From NCBI GenBank assembly GCA_001818235.1, contig MHJY01000010.1:17609-81608 (forward strand): DNA of 64,000 nt. Direction: 5' to 3'. Positions 19,291 to 36,025 of the stretch are shown one piece after another; position 1 is the first letter of the stretch, and each line of letters begins with the position of its first letter. The position numbers and the translations under genes are program-made. The DNA is from Candidatus Jacksonbacteria bacterium RIFOXYB2_FULL_44_15. GTDB taxonomy: Bacteria; Patescibacteriota; Patescibacteriia; UBA9629. The notes beneath the pieces are model-generated. The model ran no database searches. It was not told the origin of the DNA and was given only the letters and a program-made list of their open reading frames with translations.

Positions 19291-20781
19291 TTAAGCAATG
19301 CCCAAAACTTGGCGCACCACTGCCCGATCATCCCATGGCACCAAACATTCCCTCACTGCCATCACCTCTTCACAACCCTTGCCGGTTAAAACAATCACCT
19401 CTTTCGGTTTGGCCAAGGCAACCGCTTTTTCGATCGCCTTGCGCCGGTCTAAAATTTTCCAATAGTTTTGATTTATCTGACGATTCAAATCACTTTTGAC
19501 GCCCACTTCCACTTGGTTCATGATTTCCGCTGGGTCATCATCATAAGGATCCTCGTTAGTGATAATTACATATTTGGCATACTTCGCCGCCAAGCTCCCT
19601 AATTTCGGCCGCTTAGCTTTATCCCGGCCGCCACCGACTGCCCCTAGTACGGCAATGATTGATGAGTGCGGTTCTGGATGTTTGCCCGAACTAGGCCGAG
19701 CTTCGGGTGAGCAAAGCGAACCCCGACTGAGCGAAGCGAAGGAGTTTGAGGCCAGTGAGGGTAAATATCCAGAACCACGCACCGATAAAATCGTTTCGTA
19801 TACCTTCTCCAAAGCCGCCGGATCATGGGCGTAATCAACTATAACTGTTATATCGCGCTTAGAATCATAAATCACCTCCATTCGACCAGGCACTCCAACC
19901 ATTTTTTCCAAGGCCTGCTGGATTATTTTGATTTCAACTCCCTGCAATAACCCGACCGCGATTGCCGCTAAACAATTATAAATATTAAACTCGCCCAACA
20001 AATTTGTTTTAAAATGATATTTTTGATTCTCATACTCCAAATCAAATTCTGACCCTTGCGCCAGCAACTTACAGTCCGTCGCTATAATTTTTTTGAAATT
20101 TGATATTTGATTTTTGAAATTTTTTTCGGATTTCGGATTTCGGATTTCGGATTTTACCCCGTATCCCCACTTCTCATCCGCCTCAAACTTAACGAAGTAT
20201 TCCGCCTGCTCATCATCCAGATTCACGACGCTGACCTTTTTAGCGTCATTGCGAGGAGCAAAGTGACGAAGCAATCTTGAGTATAATTCTTGACCTTTGA
20301 GCGCCGCAAATAACCGCCCTTTTGCCTCTTTGTATTTTTCGAAAGACCCGTGGGATTCGATATGCTCTGGGGTGAGATTTGTAAAAACAACTGTTTGATA
20401 ATTTATGCCCCAATGGCGGTATTGTTTAATGCCTTCAGAAGTTGTTTCGATCACCGCGTACTGACAGCCAGCTTTGACCATTTCTCTCAGCAACTTTTGC
20501 AACCGAAACCGGCCTTGCATACCTTGTTTTGTGCGGTTGATCCATGATTTATCAGCAATTTTAAAATTGATTGAGGTAGTTAAACCAACCTTGTTGCCGG
20601 CCTCAGTCAAAATTTCCCAAATAAGGTTACAAGTCGTTGTCTTGCCGTTAGTACCGGTCACGCCGATTACTTTTAGCCGCCGGCTCGGAAAACCATAAAA
20701 TACATTCGCCAACACAGCCAAGGTTTTATGATAAAGCAAGATGATTGATTCGGGAACAAATTTTCGAAGTAATTTTTTCAT
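19291..20781 (-). CDS. murE: Mur ligase family protein (MurE-like UDP-MurNAc-tripeptide synthetase) carrying two in-frame repetitive insertions
   Basis: P-loop VIGVTGTNGKTTT, DYAHDP, GGGRDKAKRP and a C-terminal NEDPYDDDP motif. The start is moved to the ATG at 20781 because the ATG at 20808 lies inside the upstream repeat. Confidence 0.75.
   Translation of the reverse strand: MKKLLRKFVPESIILLYHKTLAVLANVFYGFPSRRLKVIGVTGTNGKTTTCNLIWEILTEAGNKVGLTTSINFKIADKSWINRTKQGMQGRFRLQKLLREMVKAGCQYAVIETTSEGIKQYRHWGINYQTVVFTNLTPEHIESHGSFEKYKEAKGRLFAALKGQELYSRLLRHFAPRNDAKKVSVVNLDDEQAEYFVKFEADEKWGYGVKSEIRNPKSEKNFKNQISNFKKIIATDCKLLAQGSEFDLEYENQKYHFKTNLLGEFNIYNCLAAIAVGLLQGVEIKIIQQALEKMVGVPGRMEVIYDSKRDITVIVDYAHDPAALEKVYETILSVRGSGYLPSLASNSFASLSRGSLCSPEARPSSGKHPEPHSSIIAVLGAVGGGRDKAKRPKLGSLAAKYAKYVIITNEDPYDDDPAEIMNQVEVGVKSDLNRQINQNYWKILDRRKAIEKAVALAKPKEVIVLTGKGCEEVMAVRECLVPWDDRAVVRQVLGIA
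19666..19782. mobile_element. 117-bp MITE-like element with 14-16 bp terminal inverted repeats, inserted in-frame in the Mur ligase gene (family B)
   Basis: Left TIR gtgcggttctggat (19666-19679) and right TIR atccagaaccacgcac (19767-19782). 117 = 39 codons with no stop. It encodes RGSGYLPSLASNSFASLSRGSLCSPEARPSSGKHPEPHS just before the conserved GGxRD motif. Confidence 0.6.
20095..20160. repeat. Tandem heptamer (cggattt x4) plus gaaattt-type repeats, in-frame inside the Mur ligase gene
   Basis: Encodes the low-complexity segment SEIRNPKSEKNFKNQISNFKK between conserved Mur ligase blocks. Confidence 0.6.
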
Positions 20782-20805
20782 GAACAGAACCTGCCCGAAA
20801 TTTGT

Positions 20806-20830
20806 CATTCCGAGCTTGTCGAGGAATCGC
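20806..20830 (-). repeat. Family-A motif copy between the FISUMP gene stop and the Mur ligase start
   Basis: On the minus strand it reads GATTCCTCGACAAGCTCGGAATGAC, 22 nt 5' of the Mur ligase ATG. Confidence 0.6.
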
Positions 20831-20835
20831 TTTTC

Positions 20836-21753
20836 TCAGTCCTTGAGGCAACGGACTGAAACGCCGTATAACTTATCCTCGCGCCTTCGGGCAACTGTAT
20901 AACCACCTTCGTCCAAACTTCGTATCCAGGCAGATGTCCCTCTCTCTGAAGACGACCAGAAAGAGGCGTGCATACCGCCAAAGGGGCCATTAGTGCCCCG
21001 GACGCCAGGCAACAAGGCATTAAACCCAGAGCCGCCGCCCAATTTTAACTTAAAGCCTTCGTCAGTGCCACCTCCGCCTGTGCCAATGCTATTATCCCCA
21101 TACGTATACGGAAAAGAAAGAGCGCACAAAGCGGTGTATTCATCATGAGTGGGAATATGCCAGCCAGACGGACACAGGCATTCTGGGTAACTGTTATATG
21201 CACTGGCCACAATCCATCGATGTCGTCCGTCATCTGCACTGCAATTGCTATCTATTTCAAAACAATATTTGTCTATAATTTTACTATTAATCTTGTTTAC
21301 GCAGACCGCCCGTTCCAAAGTGGTGTATTCATCATGGGTGGGAATATGCCAGCCAGACGGGCACAGTCCTTGTGCTCCTGGCGTAGTGGAATAAGCCATG
21401 GCCTCGTCCCATTGATATAATCCGCCCCCTTCATCACAGTAACTATCTTTGTTTAAATAACAGTATTTTTCTATAATGCCATTATTAGTCTGGTCTACGG
21501 CGCCGGCTATTTTAGCGCCAATGTTTAAATTTTCGGCAAACCAACATTGAGTACCAATGTAGACAGTGGCGTAGCTTTGGCCGCCATATTCAATCGAATC
21601 CCCACACGCCCATAAAGGTGGATAGTCAATTTGGTCTGAAGACGAGTTGTTAATTTTGTTCAAAATAAAAACTGCGCCGACAGCGATCATCAATACCAAG
21701 ATAAATGCGATTAACGATCTTTTTGTAAAAGAGAAAAAATTATATTTAGGCAT
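20836..21753 (-). CDS. FISUMP (Fibrobacter succinogenes major paralogous, TIGR02145) domain protein with N-terminal membrane anchor
   Basis: CPSGWHIPTHDEYT occurs twice, with a C-terminal FWSSSE...AW.RSL...SVRCLKD signature. A roughly 50-bp internal direct repeat lies at 21150-21200 and 21310-21365. Confidence 0.7.
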   Translation of the reverse strand: MPKYNFFSFTKRSLIAFILVLMIAVGAVFILNKINNSSSDQIDYPPLWACGDSIEYGGQSYATVYIGTQCWFAENLNIGAKIAGAVDQTNNGIIEKYCYLNKDSYCDEGGGLYQWDEAMAYSTTPGAQGLCPSGWHIPTHDEYTTLERAVCVNKINSKIIDKYCFEIDSNCSADDGRHRWIVASAYNSYPECLCPSGWHIPTHDEYTALCALSFPYTYGDNSIGTGGGGTDEGFKLKLGGGSGFNALLPGVRGTNGPFGGMHASFWSSSERGTSAWIRSLDEGGYTVARRREDKLYGVSVRCLKD

Positions 21754-22008
21754 AATGCTATAGTAATGAGATAATTTTCAAACCGTTTGAAAATTTATTC
21801 ATTTAGTATTTAAAATTCGTAAATTTAAAATTAAAACCATAACTTGGCGCCTATTTGCTGTTCTTTCTTTTCATTAATCCCAGTGTAACATTGACTATCT
21901 AAATTATCAATAAAGGATCAACAAAAAAAGCCATTAAAAATTTTTGTTGTCTGGGCGATTAACAAAAAAATTTAATGGCTGTCATTTCGTTATTTAATTT
22001 AGCAACTA

Positions 22009-22236
22009 CTACTTTTCGGTTCCGGCGATGAGGTTAGAAATGTGCTCGCGTACGATCGCCAGCATCTCTGGATCATTATCAACAAATTCACTGACGACCT
22101 TTGCCATGGCTAATGGCTTAGGATCTTCCAAATATTTTGGCCCCTCGATTGATATTGCTTCCACTGCAATTGTAATCTCAGCCGACATAACTTGATCGCC
22201 ATCAAGATATTTTATTGAAATTATTTTAAATACCAC
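22009..22236 (-). CDS. Hypothetical small protein
   Basis: 75-aa ORF in an otherwise empty stretch upstream of ddl. No recognisable motif. Confidence 0.3.
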   Translation of the reverse strand: MVFKIISIKYLDGDQVMSAEITIAVEAISIEGPKYLEDPKPLAMAKVVSEFVDNDPEMLAIVREHISNLIAGTEK

Positions 22237-22308
22237 ACAACATCCCTCCTTTTCTCAAAAACTTTCGCCCAGTAGACGTATACTAACATTTTCCTGTCTT
22301 TTGTCAAA

Positions 22309-23361
22309 TCAACTCGCCATCTCTATCAATTTATCCAAAAGTTGTGTAAATGACATCCCGCTAGCCGCCGCAGCTTTGGGAAAAAGACTGGCGCTGGTGA
22401 GGCCGGGTATGGTATTAACCTCCAAAACATAAAGCTCGCCAGCTTCTGTCAGAATCATATCTACGCGCGAAAAATGGCGACACTGCAGGGCGTTATGGGC
22501 GCGCAAAGCTAATTGCTGGGCTTGTTTAAATGATTTTGCTGGAATTGGCGCTGGCACGATTTCATCAACCAAATCTGGCGCGTACTTAACTTCGTAGTTA
22601 AACCAGTCACCGGCGCGTTTAGGCCGAATCTCAATCACCGGCAAGGCTTGATCGCCTAAAACCGGCACTGTTAGCTCCCGGCCTTTGATAAATTTCTCGA
22701 CAATAACTTCGCCTTTATTATCCGTGGCGATCGCCAGTTTTATTGCAGATGGTAATTCTGATTTATTTTTGACAATGGTAACGCCGACGCTGGAACCCAA
22801 ATTCACCGGCTTAACCACGCACGGGATTTTAATTTTGTTTATAATTTGATTTGAGTTTTCTTGGTTTACCGCCCAAGATTCTGGGGTGGGAATGTTCTCT
22901 GCTTTAAAAACTTTTTTCGCCATCACTTTATCCATCGCCAAAGCCGAGGACAGGGTGTCTGATCCGACAAACGGCACACCCCACAATTCCAAAAACCCCT
23001 GAACTGTGCCGTCTTCGCCAAAAGGCCCGTGCAACACCGGAAAAACCACGCCTATTTGGCTTATAGAACTCTTATTTTTTGACAATTGACCTTCACTCCC
23101 GCGCAAAGCAGTCAAACTTTTACTGATATCAAAAGCCGCCTTCGTCTTGCTGTCCAGCATTTGCGGTTTAAGGCCGCCGGAGTTGATCAAATATTTGGTT
23201 GACTCCCCGGTTGAAAGCCAGCGTCCGGTTTTATCAATCGCCACCGCAATAACGTTATATTTGTTTCGGTCTAAATGGGCAATCACCGAGGCCGCGGAAT
23301 TAATCGAGACATCATGCTCCCCGCTTTTCCCGCCGAATAAAATCAAAATATTTTTTTTCAT
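22309..23361 (-). CDS. ddl: D-alanine--D-alanine ligase
   Basis: ILFGGKSGEHDVS N-terminus and an ATP-grasp motif set (EVNTIPG). Confidence 0.9.
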   Translation of the reverse strand: MKKNILILFGGKSGEHDVSINSAASVIAHLDRNKYNVIAVAIDKTGRWLSTGESTKYLINSGGLKPQMLDSKTKAAFDISKSLTALRGSEGQLSKNKSSISQIGVVFPVLHGPFGEDGTVQGFLELWGVPFVGSDTLSSALAMDKVMAKKVFKAENIPTPESWAVNQENSNQIINKIKIPCVVKPVNLGSSVGVTIVKNKSELPSAIKLAIATDNKGEVIVEKFIKGRELTVPVLGDQALPVIEIRPKRAGDWFNYEVKYAPDLVDEIVPAPIPAKSFKQAQQLALRAHNALQCRHFSRVDMILTEAGELYVLEVNTIPGLTSASLFPKAAAASGMSFTQLLDKLIEMAS

Positions 23362-23648
23362 AAGCTTCCTGATTTTTTAATGAGCGAAAGTTGCAACCGC
23401 GTATCCAATGCTTCCGCGATTTTATGCAAAAAAGCTAGGCTGGGATTATAGGTTCCACTCTCAAGCCGAGAAATGGCAGATTGTCTCGTGCCAACTTTTT
23501 CCGCAATCTCCTTTTGCGTTAAACCTTTCTCCAAGCGCTTTTGAATGAGCGTATTAATCAAAGCAAACTCCGGTTCTAACGCATCATAAGCATTTTTAAT
23601 TTTTTTATCTTTCAATAATTTACTTTTTAATTGACGATAGGTTTTCAT
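23358..23648 (-). CDS. XRE-family helix-turn-helix transcriptional regulator
   Basis: LTQKEIAEKVGTRQSAISRLESG. It overlaps ddl by ATGA. Confidence 0.7.
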   Translation of the reverse strand: MKTYRQLKSKLLKDKKIKNAYDALEPEFALINTLIQKRLEKGLTQKEIAEKVGTRQSAISRLESGTYNPSLAFLHKIAEALDTRLQLSLIKKSGSL

Positions 23649-23819
23649 GATGGCAGTATAACGTATATGTTATATTATGTCAATTATCTTCATATTTTAA
23701 TTAAGCATTGCAATTTTTGTTTAGCGACACGGAGTTCTTTTTGCAATATCTTTTGTGTTTTTTTGATAAAACCGTGTAAGAGCACAATCTTTATATCCAT
23801 AAAAACGATGCAGTCTCAT

Positions 23820-24947
23820 TTAAACTAAAACTCGTGGAATCAACGGATTAATTCGCGTGACGATTTCGTAATTTATGCTGTCAATTTTAGCGGCCATTTC
23901 TTCCGCTGTTATCTGCTCCCCGCCACTCCTGCCAATCAACACCACTTCATCGCCGACTACGGCGTCCAAAGCTTTTGAGGCGTCGACCACTGTTTGATTC
24001 ATGCAAACCCGGCCAACAATCGGCAACCGCTGGCCGCGTACCAAAACCTCGCCTATATTGGAAAGCCCCCGATCCAAACCGTCCCAATAGCCAACCGGAA
24101 TAACCGCTAAGCGCATCGGACGAGGCGTTACAAAAGTGCAGTTATAACTCACGCCAACATTAGCCGGGACATCTTTGACCTGAACGATTTTTGTCTTCCA
24201 CTCAAGTGCTGGCTTGAGACTAAAATCAGAACAGCGTTTGCCTATCAAATCACGGCTCCACAGCGACGGATAAAAACCGTAAAGACCCAATCCCAGCCGC
24301 AGACTATTCCCGGGCAAACCGCCAAACAAAGCGCCGGGCGTATTGCCAAGATGTAAATATGGTATTTTGATCTTCTCAGTCTCCAACCACGTTACCAACT
24401 TCGCAAAATTCTCTATCTGCAATCGAGTATAGTCGGCATCACTGTCGCCAGAGGCCAAGTGACTGTATAAACCCTGCACCATTAAAAATTTTGACTTCTG
24501 CGCTGATTTGATAAACTCGGCCGCGTCTTCCATTCGTACGCCGAAACGCGACATGCCAGTATCAATTTTAAGGTGAATTTTAAAAATTTGCTGATACTTA
24601 GATCCTAGATCATTTAAAATTTTTAGCAAGCTGATCTCGTTGACCGCTATCTCAATATTTTGCGCGGCTACTTTAATCAGTTGATCGGCATCAGCGCGAT
24701 CATAATTCCCTAAAACCAGTATTGGCTTCTTGATCAACCGCGCGCGCAACTTCAGCGCTTCTTCAATAGACGCCACTGCCAAATAATCAACTTTCTCTTG
24801 GATAATTGAGGCCACTTCGGCCATGCCATGGCCATAAGCGTTGCTCTTAACTACGCCCAATAGAAAAAAATCAGGAGATATAATCCTCCGAAACTGCTCT
24901 AAATTATGCTTGATACTATCTCGCGAAATCTCGACTTTAGTTAACAT
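23820..24947 (-). CDS. alr: Alanine racemase
   Basis: VVKSNAYGHG PLP-lysine motif, with a TIM-barrel plus C-terminal beta domain pattern. Confidence 0.9.
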   Translation of the reverse strand: MLTKVEISRDSIKHNLEQFRRIISPDFFLLGVVKSNAYGHGMAEVASIIQEKVDYLAVASIEEALKLRARLIKKPILVLGNYDRADADQLIKVAAQNIEIAVNEISLLKILNDLGSKYQQIFKIHLKIDTGMSRFGVRMEDAAEFIKSAQKSKFLMVQGLYSHLASGDSDADYTRLQIENFAKLVTWLETEKIKIPYLHLGNTPGALFGGLPGNSLRLGLGLYGFYPSLWSRDLIGKRCSDFSLKPALEWKTKIVQVKDVPANVGVSYNCTFVTPRPMRLAVIPVGYWDGLDRGLSNIGEVLVRGQRLPIVGRVCMNQTVVDASKALDAVVGDEVVLIGRSGGEQITAEEMAAKIDSINYEIVTRINPLIPRVLV

Positions 24948-25003: not shown

Positions 25004-27757
25004 CTACAACTCCGGCGCCTTTTCGATTCTGATTTCGCCGCCGGCCTCCAAATATACCACGTCGCGCCGGCCAACAGCGCCCGAAATCAAGAATGCCGCC
25101 AGCGCGTTTTGAACGTGATCCTGGATCGCCCGTCGCAACGGCCGTGCGCCGTACAGCGGATCAAAGCCCAAGTGCGCCAGTTCCTGCACCGCCTGAGGCG
25201 TGACTTTAAATGTGATGCCTTTCAGCTCGAGCCTTTTTGCGATGTCGATTAAAATCAAATTGGCGATCTGCTCAATGTCCGCGATCGACAATGGTTTAAA
25301 AATAATAATATCATCAAAACGATTAAGGAACTCCGGTTTAAAATATTCCAATAAATCTTGCTTAATAAATTCCTCGCGAATTTCTTCGAGTTTGGCGCCC
25401 TGCTGTAATTTCTCCTGTAACTTTTTAGTCCCGGCATTACTGGTCGCCACAATAATCAAATTAGTAAAATCAATCACTTCGCCCTCGGCTGAGGTCATTC
25501 GGCCATCGTCCATCACCTGCAAAAACAGGTTGAGAATATTTTTATGAGCCTTCTCCAATTCATCAAGCAATAAGATGCAATAAGGGCTGTTGCGCACCGG
25601 CTCGGTTAATAGTCCGGGTTCGTGCGCCGTTCCCAACAGTCGTTGAATACTGCTCATTTCTTGAAATTCCGACATATCTATCCGGATCATATTTTTTTCC
25701 GAACCGAAATAGATCTCCGCGATCCGCTTGGCTAGTTCGGTTTTACCGACGCCAGTCGGCCCGACGAACAAAAAATTAGCGATCGGCCGCCGTTCATCGC
25801 GCAGTTCAGCGCGAGCGCGCCGCAAAGCCGCGGAAACTTGTGAGACAGCGTAATCTTGATCAATATATTCAGCGTGGATTTCGGCCTCCAGATTCATCAA
25901 TTTTACGCTTTCCTCCTGCTCAATCTTTGCCAGCGGCATGTTGATCTTGCGCGATACAATCTTAGCAACGTCTGTTTCGGTAACCACGGTTTTAGGCCCG
26001 CGCTCAGAGGCGACTTGGGCCGCAACTTCCTGCAAGATTTTGAGCGATTTCTCCGGTTGATTTTCGGTATGGATTAATTTATTGGAAAGCTCAACCGCTT
26101 TTTCCAATGCTTGATAAGCAAAAAATACATTGTGTTTGCCCTCGATAAACGGCACGCGAGCTTCCAACATTAAAACAGTGTCTTCAAAATTCGGCTCAGG
26201 AACATCGATTCTGGCTAAAATCTGCCCCAAAGCCGAACGCTCAACATATTTGGTGTAACTTTTATAATCCGCGGTGCCAATCACCAAAAACCTACCGCCT
26301 TCTAATATTTGCACCAAAACCTGATCAATGCCCATGGTTTCAGTTCCGCTTTCCGCTCGCAGTCCCACGCCAACCAAATTTTGAATATCTTTAATAAATA
26401 GTACGATGTTGCCGGAATGAGCGGTCTCATACAAAGCTTGATACAAACGCTCTGAGGCACGTGCCGGGTCACCGCCGGCCAGCAGACTGGCCACGCTCAG
26501 CGATACTAAACGCTTATCCTGCAAAATCTCCGGTACCATTTCCGCCGCCATCTGTTGCGCCAATTCCTCCACCATGCTGGATTTCCCGACTCCAGGCCGA
26601 CCCACCAGTACGATACCATGCGCCCCGCCTTGAAAAACAGTGTAAATTTGCTCCATTTCGCGTTCATGGCCAAGCGACGGTGGCAAAGCGCCCTGGCGCG
26701 CCAAAGAAGTTATATCTCGGCTAAAGGCATTTAAATACCTGGTCTGGACAGCGGTCATCGCCCGGTTCATTCCGTATTTTGACTTAAACTGCGAAAGACC
26801 GCGCCGATGCGACTGCTTAGTGCGCAAATTTTCCTCCAGTTCGATCCAAAGTACCAGATGGCGCAATTTATAAGCTTCAATGTCCAAATCGTACAAAATT
26901 TCCCGCGCATAACCACCGACTTCAGCCAATGGTATCCATAAATCCGTCAGTTTAACCTTAGCGTTGCCGCCGCGATTATAAACTTCCCAATACGCCTGCA
27001 ATAAAATCTTTTGCAAAGCCGCTGAAAAAGAAATTTCGTGTTTTACTCCGGAGTGCATTTCCGCAAACATGCAACCTTCCAAACCACGTTTAATTTTACC
27101 GACTAATACTCCAGCGTTAATTCCCAATCGCCAAAGAATTATTTTTGATGTTGTCTGCGGCAGTAAGGTCGCCAGCAAATGCAATGGATTTACTTCGTGA
27201 TACTGATTATTGTAAGCTAAAAAAAACGTCTCTTCCAAAATATTTCGCGTTAAATGATTAAATGTTTCGGTAATGTCTATTAACCTCGGCTTCTCCCCGC
27301 CGGGTTTAGGAAAACGAGCGTACTCTTTTTTGATTACGTACTCCTCCAATTCTTCCTGGCGCGCAAAACGATAAATTAAATATAAGTCTGATAAAAAAGT
27401 GAATAGAAATAACCGCAGATAAATATTGTTGATGAGCCAAAAATCTTTCGCCAAAAAACCAAGCGGCAAACTAACCTTCAATGCAATAACCCTTTGATAA
27501 ATGTAAAAAGCCAGCAGTAAAATACCAAGACCGGCAATGCAGTAAAGCGTAAAGTTAATGACAAAATCTAATTTTAAAAGCGACCGCCTCTTGGTAATTT
27601 CCCAGGGAGTCAGTTTATTAAAATCAAAAAAGAAAGTCTTTTGGCCGATTTTGAGGTAAACTGGGGCTTTCCCGGTCTGAGAACACTCTGGGCACGGAGC
27701 GCTACCAACAAAACCAGCTCCTTGACATTGTGGACAAACTACGAACAATTCCTCCAT
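25004..27757 (-). CDS. ClpC/ClpA-like AAA+ chaperone with an N-terminal zinc-ribbon and membrane anchor
   Basis: CPQCQGAG...CPECSQTG zinc ribbon, two or three transmembrane helices, tandem Clp_N repeats, and two AAA modules (GRPGVGKSS; GPTGVGKTELAK). It ends with PEFLNRFDDIIIFKPL. Confidence 0.85.
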   Translation of the reverse strand: MEELFVVCPQCQGAGFVGSAPCPECSQTGKAPVYLKIGQKTFFFDFNKLTPWEITKRRSLLKLDFVINFTLYCIAGLGILLLAFYIYQRVIALKVSLPLGFLAKDFWLINNIYLRLFLFTFLSDLYLIYRFARQEELEEYVIKKEYARFPKPGGEKPRLIDITETFNHLTRNILEETFFLAYNNQYHEVNPLHLLATLLPQTTSKIILWRLGINAGVLVGKIKRGLEGCMFAEMHSGVKHEISFSAALQKILLQAYWEVYNRGGNAKVKLTDLWIPLAEVGGYAREILYDLDIEAYKLRHLVLWIELEENLRTKQSHRRGLSQFKSKYGMNRAMTAVQTRYLNAFSRDITSLARQGALPPSLGHEREMEQIYTVFQGGAHGIVLVGRPGVGKSSMVEELAQQMAAEMVPEILQDKRLVSLSVASLLAGGDPARASERLYQALYETAHSGNIVLFIKDIQNLVGVGLRAESGTETMGIDQVLVQILEGGRFLVIGTADYKSYTKYVERSALGQILARIDVPEPNFEDTVLMLEARVPFIEGKHNVFFAYQALEKAVELSNKLIHTENQPEKSLKILQEVAAQVASERGPKTVVTETDVAKIVSRKINMPLAKIEQEESVKLMNLEAEIHAEYIDQDYAVSQVSAALRRARAELRDERRPIANFLFVGPTGVGKTELAKRIAEIYFGSEKNMIRIDMSEFQEMSSIQRLLGTAHEPGLLTEPVRNSPYCILLLDELEKAHKNILNLFLQVMDDGRMTSAEGEVIDFTNLIIVATSNAGTKKLQEKLQQGAKLEEIREEFIKQDLLEYFKPEFLNRFDDIIIFKPLSIADIEQIANLILIDIAKRLELKGITFKVTPQAVQELAHLGFDPLYGARPLRRAIQDHVQNALAAFLISGAVGRRDVVYLEAGGEIRIEKAPEL

Positions 27758-27870
27758 AAATTATGATTTAATGATACTGCTTTTAATTTTTAGCGTCAAT
27801 TAAAAAAAGCGGGGTATTTGGATCCCCGCCCTCGAAACCTTATTTGTTTTTAATTTGATAATAAACAGCT

Positions 27871-29856
27871 TTAATCCACCGTCAGCCCAGTAGCCGGTGA
27901 CGCAGCCGGCAAGCTGGCAGGTGGATTTAAAGTATTGTTGACGCTACCGTCGCCGGTCGCTACATCAGGATTAAGCGTGCTGTTACCAGTATCAGGGCTT
28001 TTGCCGACCAAACAAACCGCCTGCCAAGGACGATAGTGAGAATAAAAAGTCTCTTCTTTTTTAGTGCCATCAGCATAAACCACCGCGTAATCAAACTGCG
28101 TATCAGCCCCGTTATGGGCACTTTCGGTGCATTTAGTAATTCCAGGCGCGATATCCGTAGTCTCAATAAATTTTTTAGCTGGCGGCTTAGTAATATTATA
28201 TATTTTAGGATCAGAAATAGTCACTTGCCGTCCGTCTTTAGTCCCCCAAAATTCAAAAAATACTTCATTGCCTTTGATGGTAGTCTGAATAAGAATATGC
28301 GTACTCATGTTATTTCGAAAACGGCAATCCGGATGAGGCGGGTAGATAGTGCAATCTGTTCCGGCTGGCTCATAATAAACTACCCGGTAGCTATGGCTCC
28401 GGCGCTCGGTAATTTCCAAACCACTCTGCAAGGCGCCGCGAAAAAGAGTAGTGCCAATTTGGCATAACCCGCCACCGTATTCAGGTATGGTTCTGTTGCC
28501 CTTAATCACCAGCTCAGGCAAATAGCCGTTTTGGCCGTCGATTGCCCCCAAAGCCGCGGCTAAAGAAAATTCTTCGCCCGGCGGAACTAATAAACCATTT
28601 AATGCCGCCGCGCCAACCGCGATGTTGTGTCGCCTGTTAGCCGGACTGCCGGCAAAATTTGATTTGCCGATACCGACAATTTCTTTAATGCCCAAATCAT
28701 TTATTGATTCTGTCGAATATTTTGGCAAAACTTTTTCGGTAATAATCTCAATTGGTTCGTTAACTAAACTTTCGTCGAAAAAAAATTTGTTAGTTGCCTC
28801 CAAAGTTTGGGCATAGGAGATCTGCCTGCCTTCGCTGCTCGGTTTAAACTCAGATACTTTGCCGGAAGAAGTTAACTGAAATCGGGCTTCTTGAACCGGG
28901 AGCTCGACTGCTGGAGCAATATGTTCCTGTAAATAAGCAATCAACCCGTCGTTAAACGCCAGCATCCCGTCTGAAATTGACAGCCAGTCTTTATATTGAT
29001 TTTTGTTTATTAATAATGTCTCGGTAGCTGTCGTCGCTTCGGTTGAATCTGTATATTTAAAAAAGATGTCTGACCGACTGATAAACAACTGTTCCATCTC
29101 GGCCTTTTTACTGGAAAGCTCGGCTACTGTAACTTTAGGCAAATCTTTTTTGGCTGTCAAAGTTACTACGGGCATTGCTATCTCGCTTAGGGCGTTGCGC
29201 GTTTGTGCGATCGCCGCATCATAATCCGGCATTATTCCAGACTCCTCGGGAATAATCATTATTTTTAAATTATTGTCAATCTGCAATTTGGCATCATGAG
29301 CCGACATTTCTTGATCCTTAAAATTTTCCTGCAACGTTGCCTTAAACTTATCGTCATACAGTGTATACTGTAATAAAATTTTCCTGGGATTACGCAATAA
29401 TTCAATTTTTGATTTAAAATCCGGCCAAAAATCTCCGGTTCGCCCAATTTCCATTATGTTTTCTAAGGTAGCCTCAGTATTGACGCTAACGAGTTCGTAG
29501 GTCAAATCCGGATCAGTCGTCGCGACGACTTGAGGCCAAACCGTCACCTGCTGATTTTTATACGTAAACAACATGCCGTCGCTCTCCAAACTTCGTTTAT
29601 AATTATTTATTAACTCCGCTAACTCGGCGCGCTTTAGACCGCTGATTTTGTTGCGGCCAAGCATGATTCCCGCGTAAACGCGGCCCTGATATTTAATCTC
29701 GTATCCCCAGACTACCATCAAAAAACTAAATGAAGTAAACCAAATAATTAAAAAAAATACGGCTAGATAACGCAGCCGCTTCTTCCGGTTAGCTGTCACG
29801 ACACCAATCTCTTTTCGTTCAAAATTGTGCGCCAAAAAATTATTCTTGCGGGACAT
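27871..29856 (-). CDS. VanW-family protein with N-terminal membrane anchor
   Basis: GGGLCQIGTTLFRGALQSGLEITERRSHSY VanW signature, with a long C-terminal extension. Confidence 0.75.
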   Translation of the reverse strand: MSRKNNFLAHNFERKEIGVVTANRKKRLRYLAVFFLIIWFTSFSFLMVVWGYEIKYQGRVYAGIMLGRNKISGLKRAELAELINNYKRSLESDGMLFTYKNQQVTVWPQVVATTDPDLTYELVSVNTEATLENIMEIGRTGDFWPDFKSKIELLRNPRKILLQYTLYDDKFKATLQENFKDQEMSAHDAKLQIDNNLKIMIIPEESGIMPDYDAAIAQTRNALSEIAMPVVTLTAKKDLPKVTVAELSSKKAEMEQLFISRSDIFFKYTDSTEATTATETLLINKNQYKDWLSISDGMLAFNDGLIAYLQEHIAPAVELPVQEARFQLTSSGKVSEFKPSSEGRQISYAQTLEATNKFFFDESLVNEPIEIITEKVLPKYSTESINDLGIKEIVGIGKSNFAGSPANRRHNIAVGAAALNGLLVPPGEEFSLAAALGAIDGQNGYLPELVIKGNRTIPEYGGGLCQIGTTLFRGALQSGLEITERRSHSYRVVYYEPAGTDCTIYPPHPDCRFRNNMSTHILIQTTIKGNEVFFEFWGTKDGRQVTISDPKIYNITKPPAKKFIETTDIAPGITKCTESAHNGADTQFDYAVVYADGTKKEETFYSHYRPWQAVCLVGKSPDTGNSTLNPDVATGDGSVNNTLNPPASLPAASPATGLTVD

Positions 29857-30067
29857 TGTTAAAAATCTCGTTTAATATTTTCTTGGCTAATACTTGCTGG
29901 TCTTGCGTCACTCCCTCTGCGTCTTTAATTTCGACAATAACAACATCACCTTCTTTTAACCCAGGCGGCAAATTCGCTGATTCCCAATGTAAAATTTGTC
30001 CGTTTTCTATAATGATCACTGCCTGCCCTCCCTCGATTCGGTCAATGACTGCTTTCTTAATGTACAT
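29840..30067 (-). CDS. DUF3006 domain protein
   Basis: VIDRIEGGQAVIIIENGQ...LPPGLKEGDVV pattern. Confidence 0.55.
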   Translation of the reverse strand: MYIKKAVIDRIEGGQAVIIIENGQILHWESANLPPGLKEGDVVIVEIKDAEGVTQDQQVLAKKILNEIFNNVPQE

Positions 30068-30073
30068 AAATCA

Positions 30074-30592
30074 TCAACTGCTTTGATCAGTTACTTTAAT
30101 GTGAATTTTCTGCACCTGTTTGGCTTTGGGCAACCGGATGGTTAAAATCCCCTTTTTAAATTCCGCGACGGCGGCATCAGCTTGAATCTCCTGCGGTAAA
30201 ATAATGGAGCGAGAAAAAGAGCCCCAATAACATTCTTGATAAAAATAATTTTGCCGCTGGATCTCCTCTTCTTGTTTGCGAGTGCCGCGAATCGTAATCA
30301 TGTCGTTACTGATAGAGATATCTAAATTCTCCGAGTCAACCCCAGCCACTGCCGACTTAATAACAATCTCATCATCTGTCTGATAAACATCAACTGATAA
30401 TTGGCCATCATAATTTTGTCCAGCCCACTCTGTCATATCTTCACCGGCGGCCCCTCCAGCCCTTATTTTTTTACTCATTTCTTGTTCTGATTGATTAGGA
30501 GACTCTTCTGTTTGCACGCCAATAGTTTCCGTCTCTGGTTCGCTCGACTTTTTAATTCCCGTAATTTTAGCAAAAAAAGATCGACTGATCAT
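30074..30592 (-). CDS. Hsp20/alpha-crystallin small heat-shock protein
   Basis: Alpha-crystallin domain (DVYQTDDEIVIKSAVAGVDSENLDISI...GILTIRLPKA). Confidence 0.85.
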   Translation of the reverse strand: MISRSFFAKITGIKKSSEPETETIGVQTEESPNQSEQEMSKKIRAGGAAGEDMTEWAGQNYDGQLSVDVYQTDDEIVIKSAVAGVDSENLDISISNDMITIRGTRKQEEEIQRQNYFYQECYWGSFSRSIILPQEIQADAAVAEFKKGILTIRLPKAKQVQKIHIKVTDQSS

Positions 30593-30710
30593 ATGGCCAA
30601 AAATTTTCGATTATCAATTTTTTAAAAAATCGAAATCAAAATGGTTATTCAGTGATTTGATATTAACAAAACTATTATATACTAAAATGTTTTTTTGGTC
30701 TACTCCCCGG

Positions 30711-30730
30711 ATGTCGCTCGCGAGCGACAT
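30711..30730. promoter_or_regulatory. Perfect 20-bp palindrome ATGTCGCTCGCGAGCGACAT about 120 bp upstream of hsp20
   Basis: Exact inverted repeat. It does not match CIRCE or HAIR consensus and may be an operator for an unknown regulator. Confidence 0.35.
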
Positions 30731-31417
30731 GGCCCATTGCAATTCATAAGCCAAATAATGATTCTAAAAAAAATAAGGGCACAACGGAAGCGCCCGGTTG
30801 AAAATTGTTTCACGGCGTCCAAATTGTGCCCTATGCTCTGATTTAGAGCACAGGGTACTACTTCTTCTACTCTTTTATAAGTAGCAAAAGTAATTTCCTT
30901 GAATTTGACTCTAAACCAGTTTATTCTTACCATTCCTAGGTGGACATTAAGCCGTTTTTTTATGCTTAAAGCCCCCAAACTAATTCTTCTTTTTTTATTT
31001 AATTTTTTTGTTTTTGTTTTGTCCTTTTTATTGATCCTCCTATGGAGCATAAGCTCCACTAAGAGGTTAGAGAATTATGGAACAGTTAAGAATCTAGATA
31101 CTTTAACAGTTTTATCTATCGCTAGATAATCCGACTGAACTCTTCGCTAAAGATAAATCTCCGCAAAGAGTTAATGTGGGCGTTAAAGCATCTAAACTCT
31201 CACTGTTCCTTACCTCGTAATATTTTCAAAGAACTTTCATATCTCTATTGGTTACATTATATCATTCTTAGTTAGTGCGGTCAATCGTCGAAGTTAAATA
31301 ATTGTGTTTCCATTTTATGCGTAATTAAAGCTAAAATTACTGTCAGTAAATAATAATTTTTTGACTCTGTTGATAACTATTTATTTGTTACTCACTATTT
31401 TTTCAAAATATATTAAT

Positions 31418-35473: not shown

Positions 35474-36025
35474 TTAAAATTCATGGCAAGGCAAATGAAA
35501 CAAACTGGCCAATTCGTTATTAAAAACTTTCCCGTGCATTATCATTAAAGCGTTGCGTAACACCTCATCCTCCACCAATGCCTTTAATCCCTTATCCGCC
35601 AGCTCCAATAAAAAAGGCAAAATAAAATTAGAAAACTCTACTCGTGATGTTCGCGGCCCAAAGCGCTTGGTTAAACCTTTGATCTGCGAATAATCAAAAA
35701 GCGATATCTTCTGGTCGATTATTTTACGAATTAAAGTTTCATTCTTTTTTAAAGAAATCTCGGTAAATAAAATTTTATCCTTGCCGCTCAAATTATCGAT
35801 CTCCGCCAAATCAGGACATGAGGTTTTAACAATCAGGTCTCCACGATCCAATAATTCTTCTTTGGTATTGATAATATAAGCGCCAATATTTAGATAAGGC
35901 CGCAATTCAGGCTTGGTGGCATCGCCCTCAATTAAAACAGTATGGCGATTCTGCACAAGCACGGATATTGATTGTGAAGTCATGTCCACTTCATGCCTTT
36001 GGCCTTGAAGAACGCTAATCGTCAT
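35474..36025 (-). CDS. Alanine dehydrogenase/PNT-like protein lacking the central NAD-binding Rossmann domain
   Basis: Residues 20-120 resemble the AlaDH/PNT N-terminal domain (LIVKTSCP...ILFTEISL). The C-terminus matches the AlaDH C-terminal helices (FILPFLLELADKGLKALVEDEVLRNALMIMHGKV). No GxGxxG segment lies between them. Confidence 0.45.
   Translation of the reverse strand: MTISVLQGQRHEVDMTSQSISVLVQNRHTVLIEGDATKPELRPYLNIGAYIINTKEELLDRGDLIVKTSCPDLAEIDNLSGKDKILFTEISLKKNETLIRKIIDQKISLFDYSQIKGLTKRFGPRTSRVEFSNFILPFLLELADKGLKALVEDEVLRNALMIMHGKVFNNELASLFHLPCHEF

What the first reader, a model, noticed from the sequence alone, without database searches (positions are those of the whole stretch)
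25004..27757. ClpC-like unfoldase with N-terminal zinc ribbon and membrane anchor
The double-AAA Clp ATPase carries, ahead of its tandem Clp_N repeats, a CxxC...CxxC zinc ribbon and two or three predicted transmembrane helices (residues about 60-130). Canonical ClpC/ClpA are soluble. Membrane tethering would place an unfoldase at the envelope, perhaps substituting for FtsH-like quality control or coupling to secretion or pilus turnover. No ClpP gene or IGF/LGF ClpP-docking loop is evident in this window (IGF was not specifically located).
Basis: seen in the sequence. Interest (0 to 1): 0.5.

Follow-up and report, generated by a model that had tools for sequence, protein, structure and literature searches.

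The report
Membrane-anchored Clp-type ATPase lacking pore loops
This gene encodes a Clp/Hsp100-type ATPase of candidate-phyla-radiation bacteria that is tethered to the membrane and carries a zinc finger, but it lacks the parts that normally thread proteins or dock a protease, so it probably works differently from ClpC.

Summary
ORF 25004-27757 (-) encodes a 917-aa two-ring Clp/Hsp100 protein. Ahead of a divergent Clp_N domain it has a CxxCxGxG...CxxC zinc finger (C8, C11, C22, C25) and two hydrophobic helices (65-87 and 111-132). The extension is not a start-codon artefact: more than 100 Patescibacteria homologues of about 900 aa share it.

"ClpC-like unfoldase" is only partly right.
- There is no M-domain and no ClpP-docking loop.
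- Ring D1 is a pseudo-ATPase. Walker B reads KD instead of DE, and the arginine fingers and pore-loop tyrosine are gone. This holds family-wide (Walker B DE in 0 of 175).
- Ring D2 keeps every catalytic residue, but its GYVG pore loop is deleted in this clade. Only 53 of 175 family members keep the aromatic.

In most other lineages a roughly 125-aa membrane protein is encoded directly upstream (76 of 76 informative loci). It is absent from this window. Here and in three of four relatives examined the gene sits next to an Hsp20-DUF3006-VanW operon.

My best reading is a ClpP-independent, D2-powered remodeller at the cytoplasmic face of the membrane that probably does not thread substrates. I found no published description. 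I rate it a new variant of a known kind, interest about 0.6.

The parts
25004..27757 (-). Whole gene: 917-aa membrane-anchored Clp/Hsp100-family ATPase (stop codon 25004-25006)
   Evidence: ORF. Pfam AAA_2, AAA, ClpB_D2-small and AAA_lid_9. 100% identical to a Jacksonbacteria protein. AlphaFold pLDDT 88.7. Foldseek best matches are ClpC and ClpB.
27671..27745 (-). DnaJ/anti-TRAP-type zinc finger, res 5-29 (FVVCPQCQGAGFVGSAPCPECSQTG); one predicted Zn site from C8, C11, C22, C25
   Evidence: Translation. Sub-threshold RtpA, Anti-TRAP and DnaJ_CXXCXGXG hits. The four Cys are invariant in 87 homologues. Two CxxC in 148 of 175 members.
27497..27565 (-). Transmembrane helix 1, res 65-87
   Evidence: Kyte-Doolittle 2.22. 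Present in 171 of 175 family members at a fixed distance (median 40 aa) after the second CxxC. Part of AlphaFold helix 51-91.
27428..27496 (-). Short predicted extracytoplasmic loop, res 88-110 (moderately hydrophobic, lower pLDDT)
   Evidence: Low K+R density family-wide (0.094, against 0.21 and 0.26 in the flanks). pLDDT 65-74.
27362..27427 (-). Second membrane helix, res 111-132, with the conserved polar motif (T/S)xLxDxYLxYR (D124, Y126, Y129, R130)
   Evidence: Kyte-Doolittle only 1.25 here, 1.0-2.6 in the family. Consensus FWxSxLxDxYLxYR. AlphaFold helix 112-137. Membrane insertion is inferred, not shown.
26786..27262 (-). Divergent Clp_N-type N-domain, res 166-324
   Evidence: NCBIfam ClpA model aligns from res 171. 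ClpB N-domain 1KHY is the only weak PDB sequence hit (E = 0.2). Eight-helix AlphaFold segment. Precomputed PF02861 in P0001 and most homologues.
25898..26740 (-). D1 AAA module, res 340-620: pseudo-ATPase (Walker A GRPGVGKS retained)
   Evidence: Alignment to ClpC and ClpB. Motif statistics.
26387..26404 (-). Degenerate D1 Walker B, VLFIKD (K456, D457 in place of D-E)
   Evidence: Walker B DE is kept in 0 of 175 family members and in 10 of 10 canonical ClpB references.
26453..26479 (-). Remnant of D1 pore loop 1, AGGDPARAS (canonical AGAKYRGEFE); no aromatic residue
   Evidence: An aromatic is present in only 5 of 175 members.
26201..26233 (-). D1 arginine-finger region, ALGQILARIDV (canonical ALERRFQxV); both Arg lost (Q512, I513)
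   Evidence: In the family the two Arg are kept in 27 and 14 of 175.
25007..25870 (-). D2 AAA module plus D2-small domain, res 630-917: catalytically complete (K672, D732, E733, N774, R813, R872)
   Evidence: Pfam AAA_2 at 2e-51 and ClpB_D2-small. Each catalytic residue is conserved in 174-175 of 175.
25613..25633 (-). Site of the deleted D2 pore loop: GTAHEPG, where ClpB has GAPPGYVGYEEGG (6-aa deletion removes the Tyr)
   Evidence: All 11 clade members lack it, and only 53 of 175 members keep G[YFW]. At least 10 state changes on an NJ tree.
25337..25435 (-). Region equivalent to the ClpP-docking loop, res 775-807: two helices joined by a short QQGAK turn, no (I/L/V)G(F/L) tripeptide
   Evidence: The GF-containing segment of S. 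aureus ClpC (RFAGFGGS) falls in a 7-residue gap of the query. Family alignment. AlphaFold helices 777-785 and 790-804.
27771..27799 (-). Promoter-like site TTGACG-17-TATCAT. The -10 hexamer ends 13 nt before the ATG, so the leader would be very short.
   Evidence: This is a consensus match only.
27802..27833 (-). Terminator-like hairpin plus U-run, closing the upstream Hsp20-DUF3006-VanW operon
   Evidence: Fold energy -15 kcal/mol, z = -1.9. Sequence.
27871..30592 (-). Context: Hsp20 (30074-30592), DUF3006 (29840-30067) and VanW/PG_binding_4 (27871-29856) operon. It is adjacent to the Clp gene here and in 3 of 4 clade relatives examined.
   Evidence: Pfam. Relatives L004, L087 and L088 have it in divergent orientation, L089 lacks it. 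A functional link is inferred.

Best explanation
The gene encodes a stand-alone, ClpP-independent member of a Patescibacteria-specific Clp/Hsp100 subfamily that sits at the cytoplasmic face of the cell membrane.

Architecture (shown by sequence, alignment and model):
- a cytoplasmic DnaJ-type zinc finger;
- a two-helix membrane hairpin with both ends in the cytoplasm;
- a linker of about 35 aa;
- a divergent Clp_N domain;
- D1, which is a pseudo-ATPase and probably a structural ring;
- D2, which is the only motor and keeps all catalytic residues.
There is no M-domain and no ClpP loop.

Geometry (inferred). Because the anchor is N-terminal, the N-domain and D1 face of the presumed hexamer points at the membrane.

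Mechanism (inferred). The zinc finger and N-domain bind client proteins at the membrane. D2 ATP hydrolysis then drives bind-and-release or prying-type remodelling, not processive tyrosine-gripped threading. The reason is that this clade has no aromatic pore loop in either ring.

Context (inferred). The neighbouring Hsp20 operon suggests a stress or protein-quality-control role. In most other lineages the ATPase probably works as a complex with a co-encoded membrane protein of about 125 aa. That partner is not encoded near the gene in this clade.
For: - Fold and domains.
- N-terminal module conserved in more than 100 homologues.
- Topology from hydropathy and the positive-inside rule.
- No M-domain.
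- No ClpP loop.
- D1 degenerate family-wide: Walker B DE in 0 of 175, pore-loop aromatic in 5 of 175, Arg fingers in 27 and 14 of 175.
- D2 catalytic residues conserved in 174-175 of 175.
- D2 pore loop deleted in the whole clade P0001-P0011 and lacking an aromatic in 122 of 175 members, with at least 10 changes on a tree.
- Partner gene directly upstream in 5 of 5 and 76 of 76 informative loci of other lineages.
- Hsp20 operon adjacent in 4 of 5 clade loci.
- Precedent for a Clp/Hsp100-related, membrane-associated AAA+ without aromatic pore loops: Torsin (PMC5425593).
Against: - No experiment exists. Hexamer formation, zinc binding, topology and ATPase activity are all inferred.
- TM2 of this protein is only marginally hydrophobic, so the hairpin could be partly interfacial.
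- 53 of 175 relatives still carry PPGY-type D2 loops. The ancestral function probably did involve threading, and a non-aromatic loop might still translocate weakly.
- Adjacency to Hsp20 could be simple synteny among close relatives.
- Absence of ClpP and of the small partner is shown only for 64 kb, not for the whole genome.
Confidence: 0.5

Rival explanations
1. It is a membrane-protein dislocase or unfoldase of the FtsH/Msp1 type. The ring still threads substrates pulled out of, or away from, the membrane, using non-aromatic residues of the shortened D2 loop. It hands them to a protease or lets them refold.
For: The N-terminal anchor orients the entry face toward the membrane, as in FtsH and Msp1 (domain order). 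The D2 motor is fully conserved. The ancestral state of the family has a PPGY loop.
Against: The D2 loop of this clade is G-T-A-H-E-P-G, with no aromatic or bulky aliphatic residue. D1 has none either. The loop has been lost repeatedly, which argues that gripping is dispensable. There is no protease domain or ClpP loop.
Confidence: 0.2
2. It is an ATP-driven regulatory or assembly subunit of a membrane complex, such as a channel or an envelope or secretion device. D2 hydrolysis would be transmitted through the hairpin to membrane partners, not used on soluble clients.
For: A small integral-membrane protein is strictly co-encoded in other lineages, with gene overlaps or gaps of a few nucleotides in several loci. 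Polar residues are conserved inside TM2 (D124, Y126, R130). Pore loops are dispensable.
Against: The partner is absent from this window and from clade relatives. Beyond the small protein, no secretion or pilus gene is consistently adjacent. A Clp_N domain and a zinc finger look like client-binding modules.
Confidence: 0.2
3. It is a canonical ClpC/ClpA-type unfoldase that feeds ClpP and merely happens to be membrane-tethered.
For: The best PDB sequence and fold matches are ClpC. Databases label relatives 'ATP-dependent Clp protease ATP-binding subunit'.
Against: No M-domain, no ClpP-docking loop, a dead D1 and no pore-loop tyrosines. NCBIfam scores are less than half of every equivalog cut-off. 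No ClpP gene was found in the window.
Confidence: 0.04
4. It is an annotation artefact or a decaying gene. Either the N-terminal 130 aa are not translated, or the protein is a relic that has lost its function.
For: No Shine-Dalgarno motif precedes the ATG. Many canonical motifs are degenerate.
Against: The genome is Shine-Dalgarno-poor, with the motif in 4 of 54 genes. The N-terminal module, including four invariant Cys, is conserved down to 37% identity. The next in-frame ATG is at about residue 240, inside the N-domain. The ORF is intact and the D2 catalytic residues are conserved in 174-175 of 175 members.
Confidence: 0.03

Closest known systems
ClpA (class I Clp/Hsp100, N-D1-D2 without M-domain)
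   Same: Same domain order and D1-D2 linker length. The NCBIfam ClpA model and PDB ClpA chains align as one continuous stretch (res 171-895 and 340-895). The D2-small domain is present.
   Different: ClpA is soluble, has two active rings with pore-loop tyrosines, and has an IGL loop for ClpP. Here D1 is dead, pore loops are absent, there is no IGL, and a zinc finger plus TM hairpin are added. Score 454 against a cut-off of 993.
ClpC / ClpC1
   Same: Best sequence and Foldseek matches in the PDB. D2 is close to 50% identical by eye in the alignment (no figure was computed).
   Different: ClpC has a short coiled-coil M-domain (the MecA/McsB site) and a GF-containing ClpP loop. Both are absent here. 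In the alignment the ClpP loop falls in a 7-residue gap of the query.
ClpB / Hsp104 / ClpG / ClpK disaggregases
   Same: They are ClpP-independent. ClpG and ClpK are known (from the literature, my own knowledge) to sit next to small heat-shock genes and to have extra N-terminal domains. ClpB gives the highest NCBIfam bit score.
   Different: All have a long M-domain (distance 221 aa against 98 here), two active rings and pore-loop tyrosines. All are soluble.
ClpE / ClpX N-terminal zinc-binding domains
   Same: A Cys4 zinc module at the extreme N-terminus of a Clp ATPase, used in those proteins for substrate or adaptor binding and for oligomerisation (established knowledge).
   Different: The motif here is the DnaJ/anti-TRAP CxxCxGxG type and is followed by a membrane hairpin. 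ClpE and ClpX dock ClpP.
Torsin ATPases with LAP1/LULL1
   Same: Related to Clp/Hsp100 D2, membrane-associated through an N-terminal hydrophobic domain, lacking aromatic pore loops, and working with membrane-protein cofactors (PMC5425593).
   Different: Torsins have a single AAA ring, are eukaryotic and ER-luminal, and lack their own arginine finger. Here the Arg finger R813 is invariant and a D1 pseudo-ring is present. This is an analogy, not membership.
FtsH / Msp1 (N-terminally anchored AAA+ extraction machines)
   Same: An N-terminal membrane anchor places the ring entry toward the membrane.
   Different: They belong to a different AAA clade, have conserved aromatic pore loops, and FtsH carries a protease domain.

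Membership tests
Clp/Hsp100 class I AAA+ (superfamily level) | Two tandem AAA+ modules with AAA_lid_9 and the ClpB_D2-small C-terminal domain | tested here: met
   Pfam AAA_2 at 2e-51, AAA (two stretches), AAA_lid_9 and ClpB_D2-small at 3e-20. Foldseek E = 1e-56 to ClpC.
Clp/Hsp100 class I AAA+ (superfamily level) | Clp_N double-repeat N-domain | tested here: inconclusive
   Divergent. Not reported by hmmscan on res 1-335 at E up to 1, and it was not among the 25 of 36 families listed for the full-length protein. The ClpA model aligns from res 171, 1KHY matches at E = 0.2, precomputed PF02861 is listed for P0001, and the model has helical repeats.
ClpC | Coiled-coil M-domain (linker) inserted in the D1 small domain | tested here: not met
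   PxK motif to D2 Walker A is 98 aa (family range 91-105), against 221 in ClpB. The ClpC alignment breaks into two overlapping stretches with no counterpart for the M-domain.
ClpC / ClpA / ClpE / ClpX | ClpP-docking (I/L/V)-G-(F/L) loop in the last AAA module | tested here: not met
   A 7-residue gap lies opposite the ClpC segment RFAGFGGS. Res 775-807 contain no such tripeptide. The model shows a short helix-turn-helix there.
ClpA (TIGR02639) / ClpB (TIGR03346) / ClpK / ClpG / ClpV equivalogs | Score at or above the curated NCBIfam cut-off | tested here: not met
   ClpA 454 against 993. ClpB 495 against 1232. ClpK 404 against 1900. ClpG 397 against 1900. ClpV 383 against 885.
Threading Hsp100 unfoldases (functional class) | Aromatic pore-loop-1 residue in D1 (KYR) and D2 (GYVG) | tested here: not met
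   D1 has AGGDPARAS and D2 has GTAHEPG with a 6-aa deletion. Conserved loss across the clade.
Threading Hsp100 unfoldases (functional class) | Two hydrolysis-competent rings (Walker B DE, Arg fingers) | tested here: not met
   D1 has K456-D457 and Q512-I513. D2 is complete.
DnaJ cysteine-rich / anti-TRAP zinc finger | Paired CxxCxGxG repeats that coordinate Zn | tested here: inconclusive
   The motif is present (CPQCQGAG, CPECSQTG) and the Cys are invariant. Pfam scores are below cut-off: Anti-TRAP 20.3 against 32, DnaJ_CXXCXGXG 16.2 against 32.7. Metal binding cannot be tested here.
Integral membrane protein, N-in/C-in hairpin | Two membrane-spanning helices with positive-inside charge bias | tested here: inconclusive
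   TM1 is clear (KD 2.2). TM2 is marginal (1.25) but conserved. Family K+R densities are 0.21, 0.094 and 0.26. No dedicated topology predictor or experiment was available.
Torsin | Single AAA ring lacking its own Arg finger, activated by a cofactor that supplies it | tested here: not met
   Arg finger R813 is invariant in 175 of 175, and a D1 ring is present.
Patescibacteria two-gene cassette (small membrane protein + anchored Clp-like ATPase) | A roughly 125-aa protein with FPxWWY, KPMYGDY and GRIISFFxR motifs encoded immediately upstream | tested here: not met
   Present in 76 of 76 informative loci elsewhere. Absent from the 64-kb window and from L004 by tblastn and by profile HMM. Not called next to the Clp gene in L087-L089, which were not searched by sequence. 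The whole genome was not searchable.

The most novel reading that the evidence does not exclude
This is a bacterial, Patescibacteria-wide counterpart of the Torsin principle. It would be a membrane-embedded Clp/Hsp100-derived ring with a dead D1 and no substrate-gripping pore loops, which uses D2 ATP hydrolysis to remodel or gate a membrane assembly instead of threading polypeptides. In most lineages that assembly would be built with a dedicated 125-aa membrane subunit. If so, it is a previously undescribed type of envelope machine specific to these ultra-small episymbiotic bacteria.
Probability: 0.25. Interest if true: 0.8.

Novelty: new variant of a known kind. Interest (0 to 1): 0.6.

Why it matters
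Clp/Hsp100 proteins are textbook soluble threading machines. Here a whole subfamily has three unusual properties together:
- it is membrane-anchored;
- it has a catalytically dead first ring;
- it has repeatedly discarded the tyrosine pore loop while keeping the D2 ATPase perfectly conserved.

The subfamily is widespread. There are more than 100 clusters at 90% identity, and the partner gene occurs in at least 575 species-level genomes.

That combination argues that an Hsp100 scaffold can be used for non-threading work at a membrane. So far that idea has been discussed mainly for eukaryotic Torsins.

The subfamily also gives candidate-phyla-radiation bacteria a lineage-specific, apparently core envelope-associated ATPase. 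Their membrane biology is largely unknown, and this protein could be tested biochemically.

For annotation, the labels 'ATP-dependent Clp protease ATP-binding subunit' and 'ClpC' on these proteins are misleading.

Tried and rejected
- Mis-called start. Rejected on N-terminal conservation, the Shine-Dalgarno-poor genome and the lack of an internal ATG before about residue 240.
- ClpP, ClpX or FtsH in the window. tblastn with E. coli sequences recalled from memory found nothing. Pfam on 27 ORFs (most of the longer ones) found no protease partner.
- The small partner gene in this window or in L004. None by tblastn or by profile HMM with filters off.
- HrcA CIRCE operator. None in the window.
- Defence-system membership. 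PADLOC gave only generic AAA hits such as DolB, and nothing for the small protein.
- Pfam and NCBIfam for the small partner. No family.
- A third conserved neighbour of the cassette. None. An aminoacyl-tRNA synthetase, a GT4 enzyme and TGT each occur in fewer than a third of loci.
- Literature. Seven full-text searches found no description of a membrane-anchored Clp in Patescibacteria.
- Rfam on the conserved non-coding block near Hsp20. No hit.
Full report
**What is there**

The minus-strand ORF 25004..27757 encodes 917 aa from an ATG. It is 100% identical to a 'hypothetical protein' of Candidatus Jacksonbacteria bacterium RIFOXYC2_FULL_44_29. It also has more than 100 homologue clusters of about 900-930 aa from Patescibacteria, at 37-68% identity and close to 100% coverage.

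Pfam finds AAA_2, AAA (two stretches), AAA_lid_9 and ClpB_D2-small. NCBIfam's best models are ClpB, ClpA, ClpK, ClpG and ClpV, all at less than half of their curated cut-offs. An AlphaFold model built on 104 family sequences is confident (pLDDT 88.7, pTM 0.79). Its best Foldseek matches in the PDB are ClpC and ClpB.

**The N-terminal extension is real**

- *Zinc finger.* Residues 8-25 read CPQCQGAG...CPECSQTG, two CxxCxGxG-type repeats. They give sub-threshold hits to anti-TRAP (RtpA) and DnaJ_CXXCXGXG. Nearly all homologues start 5-20 aa before an equivalent motif. The four cysteines are invariant in 87 finger-bearing sequences, and 148 of 175 family members have two CxxC.
- *First helix.* A strongly hydrophobic helix follows (res 65-87, Kyte-Doolittle 2.2). 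It is present in 171 of 175 members, a median of 40 residues after the second CxxC.
- *Second helix.* It follows about 20 residues after the first (111-132). In this protein it is only marginally hydrophobic (1.25, a value soluble ClpB N-domains also reach). It is positionally conserved, reaches 2.0-2.6 in some relatives, and carries the motif FWxSxLxDxYLxYR.
- *Topology.* Across 171 members K+R density is 0.21 before TM1, 0.094 in the loop and 0.26 after TM2. This is the positive-inside signature of an N-in/C-in hairpin. AlphaFold predicts helices 51-91 and 112-137 in both the full-length and the isolated N-terminal models.
- *Start codon.* The next in-frame ATG is near residue 240. The missing Shine-Dalgarno motif is normal for this genome, where 4 of 54 genes have one. 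A terminator-like hairpin (-15 kcal/mol) and a TTGACG-17-TATCAT promoter-like site precede the ATG.

**It is not ClpC-like in the strict sense**

- *M-domain.* ClpA aligns as one continuous stretch, whereas ClpB and ClpC break in two. The distance from the PxK motif of D1 to the D2 Walker A is 98 aa (family range 91-105), against 221 aa in ClpB. There is no M-domain.
- *ClpP loop.* The GF-containing ClpP-docking segment of S. aureus ClpC (RFAGFGGS) falls in a 7-residue gap of the query. Res 775-807 form two helices joined by a QQGAK turn. No ClpP, ClpX or FtsH was detected in the 64-kb window (using sequences recalled from memory; Pfam on 27 ORFs, most of the longer ones).

**The two rings are very unequal**

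I compared 175 family members with 10 canonical ClpB sequences.

| Feature | This protein | Family (n = 175) | ClpB references |
|---|---|---|---|
| D1 Walker B D-E | K456-D457 | 0 of 175 | 10 of 10 |
| D1 arginine fingers (two Arg) | Q512, I513 | 27 and 14 of 175 | 10 of 10 (each) |
| D1 pore-loop aromatic | none (AGGDPARAS) | 5 of 175 | 10 of 10 |
| D1 Walker A GK[ST] | GRPGVGKS, intact | 100 of 175 | 10 of 10 |
| D2 catalytic residues K672, D732, E733, N774, R813, R872 | all present | 174-175 of 175 each | 10 of 10 |
| D2 pore loop with aromatic | deleted (GTAHEPG) | 53 of 175 | 10 of 10 (GAPPGYVGYEEGG) |

All eleven members of the Jacksonbacteria-type clade (P0001-P0011) share the 6-residue D2 deletion. 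The other members that lack an aromatic mostly have short Gly/Ser/polar loops. On a rough NJ tree rooted with ClpB the ancestral state is 'present', and at least 10 changes are needed.

A strictly conserved motor combined with a repeatedly discarded gripping loop is the most unusual property of the family. The known precedent is Torsin, which is Clp/Hsp100-related, membrane-associated and lacks aromatic pore loops (PMC5425593). Unlike Torsin, this protein keeps its own arginine finger.

**Genomic context**

- *Other lineages.* In five distant homologues a 123-130-aa gene lies directly upstream on the same strand. In four of them it ends within a few nucleotides of the Clp start or overlaps it. 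It encodes a protein with motifs FPxWWY(T/S)xG, KPMYGDY and GRIISFFxR, followed by a hydrophobic tail of about 35 aa. It matches no Pfam or NCBIfam family.
- *Survey with the partner as query.* At least 575 species-level genomes carry it. In the 80 best loci, 76 of the 76 with enough downstream sequence have the anchored Clp-like gene immediately after it. No third gene is consistently linked.
- *This clade.* The partner is absent from the window and from L004 by tblastn and by profile HMM. No such gene is called next to the Clp gene in L087, L088 or L089, which were not searched by sequence. Instead the Clp gene lies next to an Hsp20-DUF3006-VanW operon in the window (same direction, separated by the terminator). 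The same holds in L004, L087 and L088 (divergent orientation), but not in L089.

**Interpretation**

*Shown:* architecture, conservation, motif states and gene contexts.

*Inferred:*
- the protein forms a ring whose N-domain and D1 face is held against the cytoplasmic side of the membrane;
- the zinc finger and Clp_N domain bind clients or partners;
- D2 alone provides the energy;
- without ClpP docking and without aromatic pore loops, the work is more likely bind-and-release or conformational remodelling than processive threading;
- the Hsp20 neighbourhood hints at stress or quality control.

The main rivals are a still-threading dislocase, a regulatory subunit of a membrane complex, a canonical ClpC, and an artefact or relic. 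They are listed with their evidence in the rival explanations.

**Novelty**

Seven full-text searches found no description of such a protein. Databases call it hypothetical, 'AAA family ATPase' or 'ClpC'. I class it as a new variant of a known kind: a distinct, Patescibacteria-specific Hsp100 subfamily. I rate interest at about 0.6, mainly for the combination of membrane anchor, pseudo-D1 and dispensable D2 pore loop, and for the co-evolving small membrane partner.

Noticed in passing
window 30770-31250 (also L004:6244-7000, L087:2892-3476, L088:3170-3884): A non-coding block of about 450 nt upstream of Hsp20 is conserved in four Jacksonbacteria-clade loci. It has long invariant runs (AAAATAAGGGCACA, GACGTCC, GACCACAGGG, TCACTTCCCTGA, GAACAGTAAAGAATCTAGA). 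A terminator-like hairpin lies on the minus strand at 30795-30777. There is no Rfam, tRNA or tmRNA hit. It could be an unannotated ncRNA or a shared regulatory region. The overlapping 119-aa GTG ORF (30700-31059) looks spurious.
   Followed up: partly
L001:7606-7998, L002:7603-7995, L003:7626-7997, L005:6478-6849, L006:6621-7004 and L007-L086: An uncharacterised family of small membrane proteins of about 125 aa (motifs FPxWWY, KPMYGDY, GRIISFFxR) matches no Pfam or NCBIfam model. It occurs in at least 575 species genomes. In every informative locus it lies directly upstream of the anchored Clp-like gene.
   Followed up: yes
whole window: Only 4 of 54 long ORFs have a Shine-Dalgarno core upstream. 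Many starts are preceded by an A/T-rich run ending in TTT. Translation initiation in this genome seems largely independent of Shine-Dalgarno pairing.
   Followed up: partly
window 19291-24947: A peptidoglycan-precursor cluster lies just downstream of the Clp gene: a Mur ligase, a Fib_succ_major-domain protein, D-Ala-D-Ala ligase and alanine racemase. An XRE-type HTH gene (23358-23648) overlaps the Ddl start by 4 nt. Ddl and a Mur ligase are also near the Clp gene in L088 and L089.
   Followed up: no
window 35474-36025: A 183-aa ORF carries only the N-terminal domain and a C-terminal fragment of alanine dehydrogenase/PNT. The homologue in L004 is 366 aa, and L089 also has a 187-aa form. The gene may be truncated or split.
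   Followed up: no
window 47132-49291: A 719-aa protein fuses an AEP-TOTE primase domain (TOTE conflict system) to a ResIII/DEAD helicase. It is a candidate defence or conflict gene.
   Followed up: no
window 45050-46960: A 636-aa ORF with a TTG start has no Pfam hit at E up to 1e-5.
   Followed up: no
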